A stretch of DNA of 45,063 nt, from contig CAYYGX010000001.1 in the NCBI GenBank assembly GCA_964471805.1, positions 5,954 to 51,016 on the forward strand, given 5' to 3'. A model generated the notes under the pieces. That model was not told the DNA's origin. It saw only the letters and a program-made list of their open reading frames with translations, and searched no databases. The position numbers were made by a program, and so were the translations under genes. The DNA is from an uncultured Gammaproteobacteria bacterium (GTDB taxonomy: Bacteria > Patescibacteriota > Patescibacteriia > UBA9629). This document shows, piece by piece, positions 1 through 23,430 of the stretch. The number at the start of each line of letters is the position of its first letter. Position 1 is the first letter of the stretch.

Positions 1-606
1 CTTTTTCGTTTGTAACGCATGCCGAGCCTTCTCCGCCAAGCGCAAATGCTGATCGTATAATAACAGGGTAGCCGATTTTTTTTGCCGCGGTGATCGCTGA
101 TTTTGGAGTTTCGACAGCCGCGCTTTTTGGAGTTAAAAGATTAAGTTTTTTGAGCGTTTGTATAAAAAGCGCGCGATCTTCAGTTTTTTCTATTGCGGAC
201 ATTGGCGTGCCAAGGATGCGCGGTTTTTTACTCCCTCTATCTCCCCCTTTGTAAGGAGGAGAAGCAGAAGGGGTGATAATAAACCCTTCTTTATATAAAT
301 CAATTCCGCAGTTCAACGCCGTTTGTCCTCCGAAAGAAAGCAGGATGCCGTCCGGTTTTTCCTGCTTTATAATTCTTGAAACGAAATGCGCGTTTACAGG
401 CAGGAAGTATACGCGATCCGCAAGCCCGCTTGATGTTTGATAGGTTGCGATATTCGGGTTGACGACAATGGTTTTTATGCCCTCTTCTTTCAGAGCTTTA
501 ATCGCTTGAGACCCCGAATAATCAAATTCGCCGGCCTCGCCGATTTTTAAGGCGCCGGAGCCGAGGATAAGAATTTTTTTGGGTTTTTGAGGACGATATA
601 TTGACA
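1..606 (-). CDS. carB: carbamoyl-phosphate synthase large subunit, 5' part (open at window edge)
   Basis: Absent from the ORF track because it is open at position 1. Reverse translation from ATG 606-604 gives [59 protein letters not shown]...GGQTALN...EDRALF...[16 protein letters not shown], the canonical CarB ATP-grasp N-terminus. It lies directly downstream of carA. Confidence 0.9.
231..262. repeat. GC-rich hairpin element, copy 1 (translated in frame inside carB)
   Basis: CTCCCTCTATCTCCCCCTTTGTAAGGAGGAG shares CTCCCT-N4/5-CTCCCCTTTGTAAGG with the reverse complement of 631-663. It encodes ..[11 protein letters not shown].. within carB. Confidence 0.6.
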
Positions 607-629: not shown

Positions 630-663
630 CCTTCCCTTACAAAGGGGAGCGTAGGGAGGGGTT
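630..663. repeat. GC-rich hairpin element, copy 2 (carA/carB junction, inverted relative to copy 1)
   Basis: CCTTCCC-17 nt-GGGAGGG (630-660) can pair over 7 bp with one G-U. Its reverse complement CTCCCTACGCTCCCCTTTGTAAGGGAAG matches copy 1. Confidence 0.6.
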
Positions 664-697
664 AAAAGATAGCCATTCGTCAAACACCCAGTCTGTA

Positions 698-1864
698 TCA
701 GTTGGGCCGGGCGAAGCTTCCGGGTGAAACTGCACTGACATCCACGGTTTTGTTTCGTATGCCCTCGTTAGTTCCGTCATTGAGATTCGTAAACCACGGC
801 TCCCAATCGTTTGGCAAACTGTCTGTGTCTACAGCATAGCCGTGATTTTGAGTGGTGATGAAGGCGCTGGAGTGAACATTTGACATTTGACATTTGACAT
901 TTGACATTTTTACCGGCTGATTCTGCCCGCGATGTCCGTATTTTAATTTGTACGTCTTCGCGCCACAGGCAAGCGCCAGGAGTTGGTTGCCAAGACAAAT
1001 GCCAAGAATGGGAATTATAAATGACGAATTACTGATTACTAATTGATTTTTTATTTGTTCAATTGTTTTATCGCATTTTGCAGGATCTCCTGGTCCATTT
1101 GATACCACTATTCCATTGATGCGGATTTTATCATAATTCTTAATTTTTAATTCGTAATTCGTTAATTCAAAGTCCCACGGCACACGTATCACACGACAAC
1201 CGCGCCGAAGTAGACAACGAATGATATTCAATTTCACGCCGCAGTCGTAGAGAAGAACATTTTGTGTTTTGTGTTTTGTGTTTTGTAGCGGTGGTTCGTA
1301 AATGATTGGTTCACGGCAACTTACTTCCGCCACTAAATTTCGTTTATTTGGATCGTCAAAGTTTTGGTCTTTGAGTTGTAGTTTTGACATTTGACATTTA
1401 ACATTTGATATTTTTCCCAGCATCGTCCCTTTTTCCCGCAGTCTTTGCGTTAAGGCACGCGTGTCAATTCCTTCTATTGCTGGAATATTCTCTGACTTCA
1501 GCCAACTCCCGAGCGACTGCGAAGCCTCCAGGTGCGAATATGCCTTGCAGTATTCATTGACAACAAGACCAGCCACTTGTATGCGCTCTGATTCAAAAGG
1601 ATATGTTAGTAAGTTTTGAGTTTTGTCAACCAAAGGTTGGTCCGCCTTTGGCGGAAGTTTTGAGTTATCGGCAACTCCGTAATTTCCGATCAACGGATAC
1701 GTCAACACTAAAATTTGTCCGTGATATGACGGATCAGTGAACGTTTCCGGATACCCAACCATGCCGGTGTTAAACACGACCTCTCCAGACGCTGAAGTTT
1801 CTGCGCCAAAAGATTCGCCGTGGAGTATTGTTTTATCTTCTAATACAAGTGATTGAGTTCTCAT
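698..1864 (-). CDS. carA: carbamoyl-phosphate synthase small subunit (glutamine amidotransferase); 3' end apparently frameshifted
   Basis: ORF track 698..1915. The conserved CarA N-terminus MRTQSLVLEDKTILHGESFGA.. starts at ATG 1864. Motifs present: FNTGMVGYPE, GICLGNQLL (Cys nucleophile), GHRGQNQPV, TTQNHGY. The expected ..VQFHPEASPGP.. block is only readable in another frame (637-750); see findings. Confidence 0.85.
   Translation of the reverse strand: MRTQSLVLEDKTILHGESFGAETSASGEVVFNTGMVGYPETFTDPSYHGQILVLTYPLIGNYGVADNSKLPPKADQPLVDKTQNLLTYPFESERIQVAGLVVNEYCKAYSHLEASQSLGSWLKSENIPAIEGIDTRALTQRLREKGTMLGKISNVKCQMSKLQLKDQNFDDPNKRNLVAEVSCREPIIYEPPLQNTKHKTQNVLLYDCGVKLNIIRCLLRRGCRVIRVPWDFELTNYELKIKNYDKIRINGIVVSNGPGDPAKCDKTIEQIKNQLVISNSSFIIPILGICLGNQLLALACGAKTYKLKYGHRGQNQPVKMSNVKCQMSNVHSSAFITTQNHGYAVDTDSLPNDWEPWFTNLNDGTNEGIRNKTVDVSAVSPGSFARPN
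876..909. repeat. tandem heptamer array (ACATTTG) about 4.9 copies, inside carA
   Basis: Exact 7-nt period counted at 876-882, 883-889, 890-896 and 897-903, plus a partial unit. Translated as ..KMSNVKCQMSNV.. Confidence 0.9.
1028..1048. repeat. tandem heptamer array ATTACTG/ATTACTA/ATTGATT (3 units = 21 nt), inside carA
   Basis: 7-nt period counted directly. Encodes ..QLVISNS.. where CarA homologues (from memory) are about 6 residues shorter. Confidence 0.7.
1134..1168. repeat. tandem heptamer array TAATTCT/TAATTTT/TAATTCG/TAATTCG(+partial), inside carA
   Basis: 7-nt period counted directly. Encodes ..ELTNYELKIKNY.., a region about 7 residues longer than in B. subtilis PyrAA (from memory). 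Confidence 0.75.
1261..1288. repeat. tandem heptamer array (TTTGTGT)x4 (last unit TTTGTAG), inside carA
   Basis: 7-nt period counted directly. Encodes ..QNTKHKTQN.. Confidence 0.85.
1387..1414. repeat. degenerate tandem heptamer array ACATTTG/ACATTTA/ACATTTG/ATATTTT, inside carA
   Basis: Same unit as 876-909. Encodes ..ISNVKCQMSK.. Confidence 0.75.
1613..1666. repeat. 31-34 nt double-hairpin element flanked by a 10-nt direct repeat, in frame inside carA
   Basis: GTTTTGAGTT (1613-1622) / ttgtCAACCaaaGGTTGgTCCGCCtttGGCGGAa (1623-1656) / GTTTTGAGTT (1657-1666). 24 of 28 core positions are identical to 18115-18142. Confidence 0.7.
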
Positions 1865-1868
1865 ATAC

Positions 1869-1894
1869 AAAAAATCCCGAGAAATCGGGATTTT
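1869..1894 (-). terminator. rho-independent terminator-like hairpin after hicA, 7 nt before the carA ATG
   Basis: aaaaaATCCCGAgaaaTCGGGATttt: perfect 7-bp stem with a 4-nt loop. On the minus (coding) strand it is followed by TTTTTT. Confidence 0.6.
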
Positions 1895-2120
1895 ATAAAT
1901 TATTAAATTGTTCAATACTTAATTCAGTTGCGTCAATTATATCTTTTAATGTTTTTCTTTTTATTGTTTTACCGGAATGCCGCGGAATTATTATTATTTT
2001 TTGGTCTTTCTTTCTTACCCACATTTCATGAGAGTCCTTGCATTGTTTATAAAATACAAAACCGCATTTTTTTATTTTCTGAATAACTTTTTTATCGGTT
2101 AATGATGGAAATTTAGGCAT
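1893..2120 (-). CDS. hicA: HicA-family mRNA interferase toxin
   Basis: MPKFPSLTDKKVIQKIKKCGFVFYKQCKDSHEMWV..IIIPRHSGKTIKRKTLKDIID..LSIEQF fits the HicA/YcfA pattern (leader, GF..., (G)SH, basic C-terminal half). ATG at 2120; the track ORF begins at TTG 2138. Confidence 0.8.
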   Translation of the reverse strand: MPKFPSLTDKKVIQKIKKCGFVFYKQCKDSHEMWVRKKDQKIIIIPRHSGKTIKRKTLKDIIDATELSIEQFNNL

Positions 2121-2127
2121 TAGAATT

Positions 2128-2358
2128 TTAAACCGCAATAGCTAAACCCTGCCATAATTCTTGCTCTTTATATTTAATCGCTGGCTTTGCAATGAGCTTT
2201 CTATACTCCAGAATATCTTTAAGAATACTTTTTAAATTTTCTACAGCCCTTTCAATTGTTTCACCATCAGCCCATGCGCCTTGAATAACCGGGCACCGAG
2301 CATAATAACCGCCCTCTTTATGTTCTTCAATTATGATAGGATAGAAATTATTTTTCAT
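2128..2358 (-). CDS. hicB: HicB-family antitoxin (UPF0150-like)
   Basis: MKNNFYPIIIEEHKEGGYYARCPVIQGAWADGETIERAVENLKSILKD.. is typical of the HicB N-terminal domain. Immediately upstream of hicA. Confidence 0.75.
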   Translation of the reverse strand: MKNNFYPIIIEEHKEGGYYARCPVIQGAWADGETIERAVENLKSILKDILEYRKLIAKPAIKYKEQELWQGLAIAV

Positions 2359-2374
2359 AGTAAGCACAATCATA

Positions 2375-12526: not shown

Positions 12527-12531
12527 ATATA

Positions 12532-12620
12532 AATGTCAAATGTCAAAGTTCTAATGTCAAATAAATTCCCAATGGATTTTGGATTTATTTATCATTTGGA
12601 TTTTGTCATTTGGATTTTTA
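12532..12620. repeat. intergenic 7-nt-periodic repeats (AAATGTC family, TGGATTT x2, 14-mer TCATTTGGATTTTK x2)
   Basis: 12532-12566: AAATGTC AAATGTC AAAGTTC TAATGTC AAATAAA, the same heptamer as on the carA coding strand. 12574-12587: TGGATTT x2. 12593-12620: two 14-nt units. Confidence 0.8.
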
Positions 12621-14623: not shown

Positions 14624-14664
14624 GTTTTCTTGACATTCCGCAATAATATGCTAGCTTGATTGTA

Positions 14665-15345
14665 ATGTTACAAGCAGAAATCAGACAATCAAAAAGAGGC
14701 CTTGGCGCATATCGTAGAGAAGGAAAGATTCCGGCGGTTGTGTATGGCCACGGCATCCAGTCCGTATCAGTTCTTGTGGACAAAAAAGAATTTCTGAAAC
14801 GCTTAAAATCCGAAGGGACAGGATCTCTTTTGGACCTGAAAATCGCCAGTGATGAGCCGGCAAAGGTTATTCTGCAAGATTGGCAGAAACACGCAATCAG
14901 CCAAGAGTATCTGCATTTGGATTTTTATCGCATTCGCATGGATGAAAAAATGCGTGTCAAAGTGTCGCTTATTTTTACAGGAGAGGCGCCGGCGGTTAAA
15001 ACTGGCGGCGTGCTCGTGAAAGCTAAGGATCATGTTGAAATTGAATGTCTGCCAAAAGATCTGATCTCCCGCATTGATGTTGATTTATCTCATTTATCGG
15101 AATTGCGCGCTTCTATTAAAGTGCGCGATCTCTCTGTAGGTTCAGGTATTTCTATCATTGGAAATCCGGACGATATTATTGTAACAATTGCGGAAATGAA
15201 AGAAGACATTGAAGACGCGGCGCTCGCGGCGCAAAAAGAAAAAGAACAGCTTGAAAAATTAAAAGCAGAGCCTGAAGAGAAGAAAGATGGAGAAGAGGGA
15301 AAAGAAAAGGATAAAGCCAAAGATAAAGCAAAGGAAAAGAAATAG
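14665..15345 (+). CDS. rplY: 50S ribosomal protein L25/general stress protein Ctc, with K/E-rich tail
   Basis: ..REGKIPAVVYGHG.. N-terminal domain plus Ctc-type C-domain. ATG 14665 (track ORF starts at TTG 14656). Confidence 0.9.
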   Translation: MLQAEIRQSKRGLGAYRREGKIPAVVYGHGIQSVSVLVDKKEFLKRLKSEGTGSLLDLKIASDEPAKVILQDWQKHAISQEYLHLDFYRIRMDEKMRVKVSLIFTGEAPAVKTGGVLVKAKDHVEIECLPKDLISRIDVDLSHLSELRASIKVRDLSVGSGISIIGNPDDIIVTIAEMKEDIEDAALAAQKEKEQLEKLKAEPEEKKDGEEGKEKDKAKDKAKEKK

Positions 15346-15357
15346 GAAAATTAAATG

Positions 15358-18109: not shown

Positions 18110-18147
18110 GCCAGCCAAAGGCTGGTCCGCCACTGGCGGAAATTAAG
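18105..18147. repeat. 31-nt double-hairpin element flanked by ATTAAG direct repeats (hrcA-grpE spacer)
   Basis: ATTAAG / CCAGCCaaaGGCTGGTCCGCCactGGCGGAa / ATTAAG. Same element as 1623-1656. Confidence 0.7.
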
Positions 18148-22284: not shown

Positions 22285-23430
22285 TTGGCAAAAGATTATT
22301 ACAATATATTAGCCGTCTCAAAAAACTCCTCGCAAGAGGAGATTAAAAAAGCTTTCAGAACCCTTGCTCATCAATATCATCCTGATAAAAAAAGCGGCAA
22401 TGAAACCAAGTTCAAGGAACTGAACGAGGCGTATCAGGTTTTAAGCGATCCGGAAAAACGAAAAAAATACGACGAATTTGGAGCGAGTTTTGAGCAGATG
22501 GGCGGATGGGGAGCCGCAACCGGCGGCGCTTCATGGGAGGATGTGATGAGCGCGTTTCGTCAGGGCGGCGCGCGCGCGGGCGGTAATTTCGGAGGCAATG
22601 AGTTTGCCGGATTTTCTTTTGATCTTGGCGATATTTTCAGCGAATTTTTCGGAGGCCGCGCGTCTTCTTCTAGCATGAGCGGCGCTAGTCGCTCGCGTTC
22701 ATCTCGCGGAAGGGACATTGAGATCGCAATTGAGATTGAATTTTTAGAAGCCGTAACCGGCGCGGAACGCACGCTTGAATTGAAAAAGTTTGACAAGTGC
22801 TCGCACTGCAAGGGCAATCGCGCAGAGCCAGGAACTCCTCTTATTACATGCAAGGAATGCGGGGGTAGAGGAGAGATTTCGCAAACGCGGCAAACAATTC
22901 TCGGAGTTATGCGCACAAGCGGGCAGTGCGGAAAATGCGGCGGCGAAGGCGTATTTCCGAAACTTAACTGCAAGCACTGCAACGGAGACGGCATGGAACG
23001 CGTTGCAAAAAAAATCAAAGTGAGGATTCCGGCCGGCATTCAAAACGGCGAGGCCATTCGCATAAGCGGCGAAGGCGAGATTTCGGAGAACGCGATGCGC
23101 TACGGGGATTTATATGTCGGCGTCCGCATTCGCTCGCATCATAAATTTGAGAGAGACGGCGACAACATTCACTCAAGCGAACTCATAACATTTACGCAAG
23201 CCGCGCTTGGCGATAAAATTCGCGTGGACACGGCGCACGGAAAAGTTGAGATGAAGATTCCTGTAGGGACTGCTTCCGGCACAATATTCAAATTAAAACA
23301 CAAGGGCGCGCCACGTTTGCGGGGCGGAGGAGATGGAGATCATTATGTTACAGTAAAAATTATTGTTCCTGAACGAGTGAGCGCAAAAGCGAAAAAATTA
23401 TTGCAGGAGTTGAAAGAGGAGGGATTATGA
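22285..23430 (+). CDS. dnaJ: molecular chaperone DnaJ (TTG start)
   Basis: (M)AKDYYNILAVSKNSSQEEIKKAFRTLAHQYHPDK J-domain, G/F-rich region and four CxxCxGxG zinc-finger repeats. No ATG precedes the J-domain in frame, so TTG 22285 is taken as the start. The upstream part of the track ORF (22078-22284) is non-coding leader. Confidence 0.92.
   Translation: MAKDYYNILAVSKNSSQEEIKKAFRTLAHQYHPDKKSGNETKFKELNEAYQVLSDPEKRKKYDEFGASFEQMGGWGAATGGASWEDVMSAFRQGGARAGGNFGGNEFAGFSFDLGDIFSEFFGGRASSSSMSGASRSRSSRGRDIEIAIEIEFLEAVTGAERTLELKKFDKCSHCKGNRAEPGTPLITCKECGGRGEISQTRQTILGVMRTSGQCGKCGGEGVFPKLNCKHCNGDGMERVAKKIKVRIPAGIQNGEAIRISGEGEISENAMRYGDLYVGVRIRSHHKFERDGDNIHSSELITFTQAALGDKIRVDTAHGKVEMKIPVGTASGTIFKLKHKGAPRLRGGGDGDHYVTVKIIVPERVSAKAKKLLQELKEEGL

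What the first reader, a model, noticed from the sequence alone, without database searches (positions are those of the whole stretch)
876..1414. Five heptanucleotide tandem arrays inside carA, all kept in frame and all at loop positions
The arrays are:
- 876-909: (ACATTTG), about 4.9 copies.
- 1028-1048: ATTACTG/ATTACTA/ATTGATT.
- 1134-1168: (TAATTCN), 4 or more copies.
- 1261-1288: (TTTGTGT) x4.
- 1387-1414: ACATTTG-type, about 4 copies.

Three units of 7 nt make 21 nt, or 7 codons. The arrays coincide with places where this CarA is about 6-8 residues longer than E. coli CarA or B. subtilis PyrAA (from memory). For example, PVK[MSNVKCQMSNVHSS]AFITTQNHGY compares with PVKDVEKNVVMITAQNHGF.

A 7-nt unit is not a multiple of 3, so a gain or loss of one unit would shift the frame. 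That is the classical design of slipped-strand contingency loci, yet here it sits in a core biosynthetic gene. The same heptamer (AAATGTC on the coding strand; it contains TTGACA on the opposite strand) recurs intergenically at 12532-12566. It may also recur in decayed form in the TagA-like domain (23852-23879, ..GKMSNQIQN..). I do not know of a described mechanism that seeds 7-nt arrays into protein loops.
Basis: partly seen in the sequence, partly recalled or inferred. Interest (0 to 1): 0.7.

Follow-up and report, generated by a model that had tools for sequence, protein, structure and literature searches.

The report
Slippery seven-base repeats inside carA
A core biosynthetic gene (carA) of an uncultured Patescibacteria bacterium carries short tandem 7-base repeats in every surface loop that tolerates extra residues; in close relatives, gain or loss of one repeat unit breaks the gene, so a housekeeping enzyme carries several built-in mutational on/off points.

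Summary
Four perfect or near-perfect period-7 arrays lie in carA (minus strand, 637-1864). A fifth is weak. No other repeat period reaches this strength anywhere in the 45 kb.

The genome belongs to the Candidatus Jacksonbacteria clade (CPR). Relatives carry arrays at the same six CarA positions, but with different 7-nt units. These six positions are exactly the six indel-variable loops of the CarA family, and they are low-confidence loops in an AlphaFold model.

Fixed differences from the closest relative are +21, +21 and +24 nt. In two independent pairs of about 99.5% identical contigs, one 7-nt unit differs, which frameshifts and truncates CarA.

(AAATGTC)n also sits in frame in PolA, PriA, RecG, ProRS, transketolase and a P-type ATPase in metagenomes.

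Best reading: these are slippage-driven heptanucleotide microsatellites, filtered by selection for reading frame, coding strand and loop position. They work like the NeuO contingency repeat, but adaptive switching is not shown. This is a new variant of a known kind.

Unexplained: array density in carA exceeds that of intergenic DNA. In addition, this window's carA has a separate 1-nt frameshift at 748-751.

The parts
637..1864 (-). carA (glutamine-hydrolysing carbamoyl-phosphate synthase small subunit). ATG at 1864-1862, TAA at 639-637. The reading frame is broken by a 1-nt frameshift at 748-751.
   Evidence: Pfam CPSase_sm_chain plus GATase. PDB phmmer: CPS1 1e-91, E. coli CarA 1e-69. Foldseek TM 0.81-0.83. 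Coordinates.
876..909 (-). Site 6 array, (AAATGTC)n on the coding strand, peptide KMSNVKCQMSNV (aa ~319-332). It is +24 nt relative to L081.
   Evidence: TRF 4.9 copies, 100% matches. Alignment. pLDDT 59-77, loop.
1028..1048 (-). Site 5, a weak or decayed array (NAGTAAT-like units), peptide NQLVISNSS. Same length as in L081.
   Evidence: Not called by TRF in the window. The orthologue is called in L081. Clear arrays at this site in L082, L083, L084 and L086.
1134..1168 (-). Site 4 array, (AGAATTA)n on the coding strand, peptide ELTNYELKIKNYD. It is +21 nt (3 units) relative to L081.
   Evidence: TRF 4.9 copies, 82%. Alignment.
1260..1286 (-). Site 3 array, (CACAAAA)n on the coding strand, peptide QNTKHKTQN. 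Same length as the decayed orthologous stretch in L081, so it is homogenised in this lineage or decayed in L081.
   Evidence: TRF 3.9 copies, 100%. Alignment. Loop, pLDDT ~76.
1383..1413 (-). Site 2 array, (AAATGTC)n on the coding strand, peptide ISNVKCQMSK. It is +21 nt relative to L081, which keeps a two-unit proto-array (ACAAATGACAAAT).
   Evidence: TRF 4.4 copies, 87%. Alignment.
1611..1666 (-). (AAAACTC)-type array remnants at 1611-1624 and 1655-1666 flank an exact 30-nt insertion at 1625-1654. The insert forms two small hairpins and is translated as PPKADQPLVD.
   Evidence: Exact 30-nt gap in L081 with no target duplication. Fold z = -3.2. Pattern match.
748..751 (-). A4 run (T4 on the + strand) holding a 1-nt frameshift. 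Downstream, the conserved PWMSVQFHPEASPGP segment continues in another frame. This is not at an array.
   Evidence: Three-frame translation. The window is 5 nt shorter here than L081. The deposited gene call P0001 is the truncated 388-aa form.
12531..12618 (+). Intergenic period-7 arrays between divergent genes: (AAATGTC) x4.6 at 12531-12562, and (TGGATTT)/14-mer at 12573-12618.
   Evidence: TRF, search, sequence.
18115..18141 (+). Second copy of the double-hairpin element CCAAAGGYTGGTCCGCCNNNGGCGGAA. It is intergenic, between hrcA and grpE.
   Evidence: 2 matches in the window against 0 expected. Gene identities from Pfam.

Best explanation
The arrays are heptanucleotide simple-sequence repeats (microsatellites). 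They are born from local 7-mers and then expand, contract and homogenise by replication slippage. The lineage is the Candidatus Jacksonbacteria clade of Patescibacteria, and it has an excess of repeats at period 7 specifically.

Inside genes such repeats survive only under three conditions:
1. The coding strand must be the strand that is stop-free in all three frames. The A-rich strand gives K/N/Q/S/T-rich peptides.
2. The array must sit where extra residues are tolerated. In CarA these are the six indel-variable surface loops, and all six are occupied.
3. The total length must keep the reading frame.

As a result, fixed differences between lineages come in 21-nt (three-unit) steps. Single-unit (7-nt) slips produce frameshifted, truncated carA alleles that segregate in populations.

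A 7-nt repeat is read in all three frames, so it encodes the same 7-residue peptide whatever the frame. Small compensating indels inside an array would therefore cost little.

The net effect is a core enzyme gene that carries five to six mutational on/off points.

Shown: the arrays, the period-7 excess, the loop positions, the orthologous sites with different units, the 21-nt steps, and the one-unit frameshift variants.
Inferred: slippage as the process, selection as the filter, and switching as a by-product rather than a function.
For: - Period-7 specificity: 26.4 arrays per 100 kb in the window plus six relatives, against 5.4 in 80 control carA loci. Only period 14 is also raised. By group, the 15 CPR loci among those controls (mostly Peregrinibacteria/Peribacteria; Jacksonbacteria not included) give 11.9, other bacteria 4.5 and archaea 0.8.
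- All four strong lag-7 segments in the window are in carA.
- Relatives at 63-70% identity carry arrays at the same six sites with different units. CPR CarAs at about 55% identity have none.
- The CarA family has exactly six indel-variable regions among 89 non-Jacksonbacteria homologues, and they coincide one to one with the six array sites.
- The sites are loops or element ends of lowered pLDDT in a confident model.
- Window versus L081: +21, +21 and +24 nt at arrays, plus a 30-nt hairpin insert.
- Local origin of units: L081 keeps a two-unit proto-array at site 2. At site 6 the GAATTAC unit of L212 resembles L081's local GAACTGC, and L212 is 21 nt longer there.
- One-unit variation: L086/L087 differ by one CTACTCA unit, splitting CarA into 322 + 99 aa. 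L211/L212 differ by one ACGAATT unit, truncating CarA to 347 aa.
- carA dN/dS is 0.20, like its neighbours at 0.13-0.24.
- Generality: 41 of 81 (AAATGTC)>=3 arrays in metagenome contigs lie in open frames of >=150 aa. Six examples checked with Pfam are PolA, RecG, PriA, ProRS, transketolase and a P-type ATPase.
- Units are diverse: 78 canonical units among 188 arrays.
- All three frames of the array give the KCQMSNV peptide.
Against: - Array density in carA of relatives (2.47/kb) exceeds that of intergenic DNA (1.47/kb) and is about 30x that of other CDS (0.08/kb). A pure 'random birth plus tolerance filter' model does not predict this.
- dnaE and thrS next door have no indel of >=3 aa.
- The same unit occurs at three places in the window. 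Sites 2 and 6 are 90% identical over 39 nt including flank, which hints at copying between arrays.
- Small CCGCC-loop-GGCGG hairpins sit in or beside arrays in five Jacksonbacteria instances.
- There are no read-level data for this genome and no sister genome of the window.
- All sequences are metagenome assemblies.
Confidence: 0.68

Rival explanations
1. Adaptive contingency locus. The arrays are kept because stochastic, reversible switching of carA (and pyrB) off and on benefits an episymbiont. It could stop costly carbamoyl-phosphate and pyrimidine synthesis when the host supplies nucleotides.
For: - Two independent one-unit frameshift alleles occur among near-identical contigs.
- Arrays are concentrated in carA and pyrB, above intergenic density, and in carA/carB of a Peregrinibacteria locus.
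- The design is the same as neuO, where translation is full-length only when the unit count is divisible by 3 (PMC13001214).
- The window's own carA is frameshifted.
Against: - There are five to six short arrays (3-5 units) scattered through the gene, rather than one long 5' tract.
- Arrays sit exactly in structurally permissive loops, as expected from a tolerance filter.
- Identical arrays occur in frame in PolA, PriA, RecG and ProRS. On general knowledge these are core replication, repair and translation genes for which switching off would probably be costly.
- The window's frameshift is not at an array.
- There are no ON/OFF frequency data.
Confidence: 0.17
2. Arrays are seeded or spread by a copying process: a very small mobile element, or ectopic template switching between arrays. 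They do not arise locally. The hairpin elements and arrays would travel together.
For: - An identical 43-nt hairpin element sits inside two different carA arrays in L083.
- The 30-nt double hairpin in carA site 1 has a second copy at 18115-18141.
- Hairpins adjoin arrays in L081 and L082.
- The AAATGTC unit occurs at three window sites, and sites 2 and 6 share flanking similarity.
Against: - Units are very diverse.
- In two cases the unit derives from the local ancestral sequence.
- The 30-nt insert has no target duplication, and the arrays themselves have no terminal structure.
- No transposase was looked for or seen near the arrays.
Confidence: 0.1
3. Artefact or decay: the arrays are assembly errors, or carA is a dead pseudogene accumulating junk.
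For: - The window's carA has a frameshift.
- Rifle scaffolds have 100-N gaps that start exactly at an array.
Against: - Arrays occur at homologous sites in independent assemblies from NCBI, ENA and JGI.
- They stay in frame.
- dN/dS of 0.20, or <=0.09 against farther relatives, shows purifying selection.
- The arrays (27-35 nt) are shorter than the assembler k-mer implied by contig names such as 'k141'. This last point is my inference.
Confidence: 0.03

Closest known systems
neuO heptanucleotide repeat of E. coli K1 (CUS-3 prophage O-acetyltransferase)
   Same: It is a tandem 7-nt unit inside the coding sequence, translated in frame. The protein is full-length only when the unit count is divisible by 3, and single-unit slippage switches it off (PMC13001214). 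Its unit AAGACTC differs by one base from the AAAACTC unit found at several Jacksonbacteria carA and pyrB sites.
   Different: neuO has one long tract (3-53 units) at the 5' end of an accessory, phage-borne surface-modification gene, with demonstrated phase variation. Here there are five to six short tracts (3-5 units) in internal loops of a chromosomal housekeeping enzyme, and switching is seen only as rare variants in relatives.
Over-represented heptanucleotide long SSRs of prokaryotes (Mrazek and co-workers 2007, as summarised in PMC4679880 and PMC4692102), including cyanobacterial STRR, Xanthomonas/Nostoc GGGAATC-type repeats and Beggiatoaceae TAACTGA repeats
   Same: The excess is period-7 specific and lineage specific. 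Typical arrays have about 4 units, and length and sequence vary extensively between close relatives. The explanation proposed for those repeats is polymerase slippage with a roughly 7-nt footprint.
   Different: Those families are mostly intergenic and often have one dominant unit per genome. In TAACTGA-type repeats, ORF overlaps are exceptions. Here the units are many and the densest location is inside a conserved enzyme gene, in frame.
Classical SSR contingency loci (Haemophilus, Neisseria, Campylobacter)
   Same: The unit length is not a multiple of 3, and slipped-strand mispairing causes frameshift ON/OFF.
   Different: Classical loci mostly use 1-5-nt units, usually a single tract near the 5' end or in the promoter, and affect surface or restriction-modification genes (general knowledge; PMC4692102).
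Very small dispersed palindromic repeats (REP elements; Nostoc small dispersed repeats of Elhai et al. 2008, recalled from memory, paper not retrieved)
   Same: The 30-nt double hairpin in site 1 is short, palindromic, multi-copy (2 copies in 45 kb), inserted without a target duplication, and nested in a heptamer array.
   Different: One copy lies in frame inside a conserved protein. There is no sequence similarity to described families, and no associated transposase was examined.

Membership tests
SSR contingency (phase-variable) locus | Tandem repeat tract within the ORF or promoter, with a unit length that is not a multiple of 3 | tested here: met
   Period-7 arrays lie inside carA.
SSR contingency (phase-variable) locus | Unit-number variation within populations or between close strains that switches the reading frame | tested here: inconclusive
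   Met in relatives: L086/L087 and L211/L212 each differ by exactly one unit, with a frameshift. Not testable for the window's own arrays, because no reads and no sister genome are available.
SSR contingency (phase-variable) locus | The switching is reversible and adaptive; the gene is typically for surface, host-interaction or R-M functions; there is a single tract near the 5' end | tested here: not met
   The gene is a housekeeping glutaminase subunit. It has five to six internal tracts in loops. Adaptiveness cannot be tested here.
NeuO-type translated heptad repeat | The 7-nt unit is translated as a 7-residue repeat, and the protein is intact only at in-frame unit counts | tested here: met
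   The KCQMSNV, NYELKIK and KTQNSKL-type peptides are translated. Fixed differences are 21 nt.
NeuO-type translated heptad repeat | N-terminal tract of an O-acetyltransferase; homology to neuO | tested here: not met
   The protein is CarA, and the tracts are internal.
Prokaryotic heptanucleotide long SSRs (Mrazek-type, STRR, TAACTGA) | Lineage-specific excess of tandem repeats at period 7 | tested here: met
   26.4 against 5.4 per 100 kb, with no excess at other periods except 14. Breakdown by lineage.
Prokaryotic heptanucleotide long SSRs (Mrazek-type, STRR, TAACTGA) | A named consensus unit (STRR1-3, TAACTGA, GGGAATC) and a mainly intergenic location | tested here: not met
   Units are diverse and different from the named ones. 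The densest location is coding.
REP / small dispersed palindromic repeat (applies to the 30-nt insert only) | A short imperfect palindrome present in many dispersed copies, usually extragenic, mobilised by a RAYT/TnpA-type enzyme | tested here: inconclusive
   Hairpins are supported (z = -3.2). Two copies occur in 45 kb, and one of them is intragenic. Genome-wide copy number and the enzyme cannot be tested with one window.

The most novel reading that the evidence does not exclude
In Jacksonbacteria and some Peregrinibacteria, in-frame heptanucleotide arrays are an evolved, lineage-wide system of reversible stochastic gene switches. The switches are placed in biosynthetic genes (carA, pyrB, carB), so that subpopulations of an episymbiont turn de novo carbamoyl-phosphate and pyrimidine synthesis off and on. 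The arrays are possibly seeded or copied together with very small hairpin elements.
Probability: 0.15. Interest if true: 0.8.

Novelty: new variant of a known kind. Interest (0 to 1): 0.6.

Why it matters
SSRs whose unit is not a multiple of three are normally purged from the interior of housekeeping genes. Here a conserved enzyme has all six of its permissive loops occupied by such repeats. The sites have persisted across a clade while the units turned over. One-unit frameshift alleles are visible in natural populations.

If this holds up, it has four consequences:
- A large share of protein-length variation ("insertions") in some Patescibacteria proteins would have a simple mutational origin.
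- It warns that truncated or split genes in CPR MAGs may be genuine slippage alleles rather than assembly errors.
- It gives a natural map of insertion-tolerant loops in enzymes.
- It makes testable whether reduced-genome symbionts use, or merely suffer, stochastic inactivation of biosynthetic genes.

Tried and rejected
- A genome-contig scan with CarA found no sister genome; the best hit was 54% identical.
- A site-specific metagenome scan (flank plus array) found nothing.
- An exact look-up of P0001 found no contig on record. Read- or strain-level variation of the window's own arrays could therefore not be tested.
- The suggested decayed copy at 23852-23879 gives no TRF call and only about 3/7 lag-7 matches by eye. 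Rejected.
- The TTGACA-in-array idea (antisense promoters) was rejected. Promoter-like sites in carA number 2 against 2.7 expected. The intergenic hits do not use the array's TTGACA.
- A limited 'vocabulary' of units, expected if arrays were inserted copies, was rejected: 78 units among 188 arrays.
- Relaxed selection or an old pseudogene as the cause was rejected: dN/dS is 0.20, like the neighbours.
- A protein-level lag-7 test on 120 CPR transketolases was uninformative. It gave one hit, and other lags were dominated by conserved motifs.
- Literature searches for heptamer repeats in CPR/Patescibacteria found nothing. The Elhai 2008 small-dispersed-repeat paper could not be retrieved.
Full report
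**1. What is there**

The region is the gene carA on the minus strand (ATG at 1864, TAA at 639-637).
- Pfam finds CPSase_sm_chain plus class-I GATase.
- The best solved relatives are human CPS1 (1e-91) and E. coli CarA (1e-69).
- An AlphaFold2 model built on 96 homologues has pLDDT 87.3 and pTM 0.90. It superposes on CPS1 and CarA with TM 0.81-0.83.

- 876-909: ACATTTG x4.9, 100% matches.
- 1134-1168: TAATTCT x4.9.
- 1260-1286: TTTTGTG x3.9, 100% matches.
- 1383-1413: TTTGACA x4.4.

The fifth array (1028-1048) is too decayed for TRF in the window. Its orthologue is called in the closest relative, and other relatives carry clear arrays at that position.

A strict self-match scan gives four segments at lag 7, all in carA. 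It gives none or one at lags 4-12, and none in shuffles.

**2.

- There is a sixth site at 1611-1666. (AAAACTC)-type repeat remnants flank an exact 30-nt insertion (1625-1654) that folds into two small hairpins.
- The gene is not intact. In an A4 run at 748-751 the frame shifts by one base, and the conserved PWMSVQFHPEASPGP segment continues in another frame. That segment contains the His and Glu of the catalytic triad, by homology with E. coli CarA. The public gene call (P0001, 388 aa) is the truncated product. This frameshift is not at an array, and I cannot tell whether it is real or a sequencing error.

**3. Whose genome, and what relatives show**

The nearest CarA proteins are named Candidatus Jacksonbacteria / Parcubacteria. 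The closest locus, L081, is syntenic: dnaE, thrS, pyrB, hicBA, carA, carB.

Relatives at 63-70% identity carry inserts at the same six positions, but with different 7-residue-periodic peptides. CPR CarAs at about 55% identity have none. At the DNA level these inserts are period-7 arrays with different units at orthologous sites. At site 2 the units are:
- AAATGTC in the window;
- AAATTCA in L082 and L083;
- AAAACTA in L084;
- AAAACTC x4.3, perfect, in L085;
- GGAACAG in L086.

Internally homogeneous arrays that differ between orthologues are what ongoing slippage with unit turnover (concerted evolution) produces.

**4. Period-7 specificity**

| Set | Period-7 arrays per 100 kb |
|---|---|
| Window plus six Jacksonbacteria loci | 26.4 |
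| 80 control carA loci from other organisms (all) | 5.4 |
| 15 CPR loci among the controls (no Jacksonbacteria) | 11.9 |
| Other bacteria among the controls | 4.5 |
| Archaea among the controls | 0.8 |

Only period 14 is also raised. The value for the CPR control loci is driven by a few Peregrinibacteria and Peribacteria loci, so the excess is lineage specific.

**5. Loop positions**

I defined variable regions using only the 89 non-Jacksonbacteria homologues of alignment A5. The CarA family then has exactly six indel-variable regions between conserved cores. They coincide one to one with the six array sites.

In the model all six are loops or element ends with lowered confidence, pLDDT 59-77. 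Site 4 is a short hairpin at about 88-90. Every permissive loop of the enzyme is occupied.

**6. Frame behaviour**

Against L081, the window differs at the six sites as follows:
- Site 1: +30 nt, the hairpin insert, with no target duplication.
- Site 2: +21 nt.
- Site 3: 0 nt. It is perfect in the window and decayed in L081.
- Site 4: +21 nt.
- Site 5: 0 nt.
- Site 6: +24 nt.

Fixed differences are in-frame and mostly three units long.

Two pairs of nearly identical contigs differ by exactly one unit:
- L086 versus L087 lack or have one CTACTCA at site 5. This splits CarA into 322 + 99 aa.
- L211 versus L212 (7 mismatches in 1269 nt) lack or have one ACGAATT at site 6. This truncates CarA to 347 aa.

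In two Rifle scaffolds the 100-N gaps begin at the first base of the site-2 array.

A 7-nt repeat is read in all three frames, so the array gives the same peptide (KCQMSNV) in every frame. The opposite strand contains stop codons (ACA TTT GAC ATT TGA), which fixes the coding orientation.

**7. Where units come from**

- At site 2, L081 keeps a two-unit proto-array (ACAAATGACAAAT) exactly where the window has 4.4 units.
- At site 6, the GAATTAC unit of L212 resembles the local GAACTGC of L081, and L212 is longer by exactly 21 nt.
- Units are diverse overall: 78 canonical units among 188 arrays.

This favours local birth by tandem duplication followed by slippage. It matches the published view that heptamer repeats are over-represented in prokaryotes, perhaps because about 7 nt is the polymerase footprint (Mrazek et al. 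2007, as summarised in PMC4679880 and PMC4692102).

**8. Generality**

- 41 of 81 arrays lie in open frames of >=150 aa, as KCQMSNV-type peptides.
- Pfam on six of the ORFs confirms DNA polymerase I, RecG, PriA, prolyl-tRNA synthetase, transketolase and a P-type ATPase.
- The transketolase is of Patescibacteria type: among its named relatives are Gottesmanbacteria, Roizmanbacteria and a Microgenomates-group bacterium.

On general knowledge, several of these are core replication and translation genes for which adaptive switching off seems unlikely. This is my main reason to prefer 'tolerated mutational product' over 'evolved switch'.

**9. Selection on carA**

dN/dS between the window and L081 is 0.20 for carA and 0.13-0.24 for six neighbouring genes. 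Against farther relatives it is <=0.09. carA is therefore not an old pseudogene.

**10. What remains unexplained**

In the six relatives, array density is:
- carA: 2.47/kb;
- pyrB: 0.89/kb;
- carB: 0.15/kb;
- other CDS: 0.08/kb;
- intergenic DNA: 1.47/kb.

The arrays are orthologous, so this amounts to about six ancestral events. Even so, carA is an outlier:
- dnaE (1173 aa) and thrS show no indel of >=3 aa between the window and L081.
- A Peregrinibacteria locus also concentrates arrays in carA and carB.
- Three window arrays share one unit, and sites 2 and 6 are 90% identical over 39 nt including flank.
- CCGCC-loop-GGCGG hairpins sit in or next to arrays in the window, L081, L082 and twice (an identical 43 nt) in L083.
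- The window's 30-nt element has a second copy at 18115-18141, between hrcA and grpE.

These points keep alive two minority readings: an adaptive switch for pyrimidine/arginine precursor synthesis, and copying linked to very small elements.

**11. Comparison with known systems**

The closest functional analogue is neuO of E. coli K1. It has a translated AAGACTC heptanucleotide tract and is ON only when the count is divisible by 3 (PMC13001214). The repeats here work the same way, but they are multiple, short and internal, and sit in a housekeeping gene.

They belong to the general class of prokaryotic heptanucleotide SSRs. They match none of the named families (STRR, TAACTGA, GGGAATC) in sequence or in preferred location.

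I found no paper describing heptamer arrays in CPR genes.

**12. Verdict**

This is a real, non-artefactual feature. It is a new variant of a known kind of element, with moderately high interest. The decisive missing evidence is read-level allele counts and a genome-wide survey.

Noticed in passing
window 748-751 (minus-strand carA): A 1-nt frameshift in an A4 run. The conserved C-terminal PWMSVQFHPEASPGPTD segment is in another frame, so the annotated product (P0001, 388 aa) lacks the catalytic His/Glu motif. It could be a real pseudogenising mutation or a homopolymer error.
   Followed up: partly
window 1625-1654 and 18115-18141: Two copies of a ~30-nt double-hairpin element (CCAAAGGYTGGTCCGCCNNNGGCGGAA). 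One is translated in frame inside carA (PPKADQPLVD). The other is intergenic, between hrcA and grpE. On the antisense strand the carA copy plus the T-rich repeat looks like an intrinsic terminator.
   Followed up: partly
window 235-280 (in carB) and 626-662 (carA stop / carA-carB spacer): A C-tract/G-tract element sharing the CTCCCC(C)TTTGTAAGG core occurs twice in opposite orientations. In carB it is an in-frame ~13-aa insertion ([14 protein letters not shown]) absent from L081. At the carA end it supplies the last residues and the stop codon. Fold z-scores are weak (-1.4, -0.7), and two matches are not beyond chance (11 of 100 shuffles).
   Followed up: partly
L083 3029-3071 and 3854-3896: An identical ~43-nt hairpin-containing element (CATGCCTCATCGGCAGTCCGCCGAAGAGGCGGAAACCACAACT) is inserted in two different heptamer arrays of the same carA gene. 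It is translated both times as STCLIGSPPKRRKPQL.
   Followed up: partly
window 1893-2373; L081 9475-9973; L082 3794-4253 and 6080-6543: A hicA/hicB toxin-antitoxin pair sits between pyrB and carA. Its proteins are only 27-36% identical between the window and L081, while neighbouring genes are 81-92% identical. In L082 hicAB-like genes lie after carA, and again inside a split carB together with an NYN-domain gene. The cassette therefore appears to be mobile or replaceable.
   Followed up: no
L088 2847-2946; L090 2898-2997: The 100-N scaffold gaps inside carA start exactly at the first base of the site-2 heptamer array, so assemblies break at the arrays.
   Followed up: partly
window 15233-15350: The ribosomal protein L25/TL5 gene (14656-15345) ends in a lysine/glutamate-rich tail. 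The tail is encoded by 21-nt and 6/12-nt A/G-rich tandem repeats.
   Followed up: no
window 637-1864: This CarA is closer in sequence to the glutaminase-like domain of human CPS1 (1e-91) than to E. coli CarA (1e-69). Its nearest non-CPR relatives include DPANN archaea, which suggests a widely exchanged carA lineage.
   Followed up: no
window 23427-25076 vs 24247-24321: The mechanical 549-aa ORF runs across a tRNA-Gly(CCC) gene, so the real gene must end earlier. A tRNA-Pro(GGG) lies at 26239-26314.
   Followed up: no
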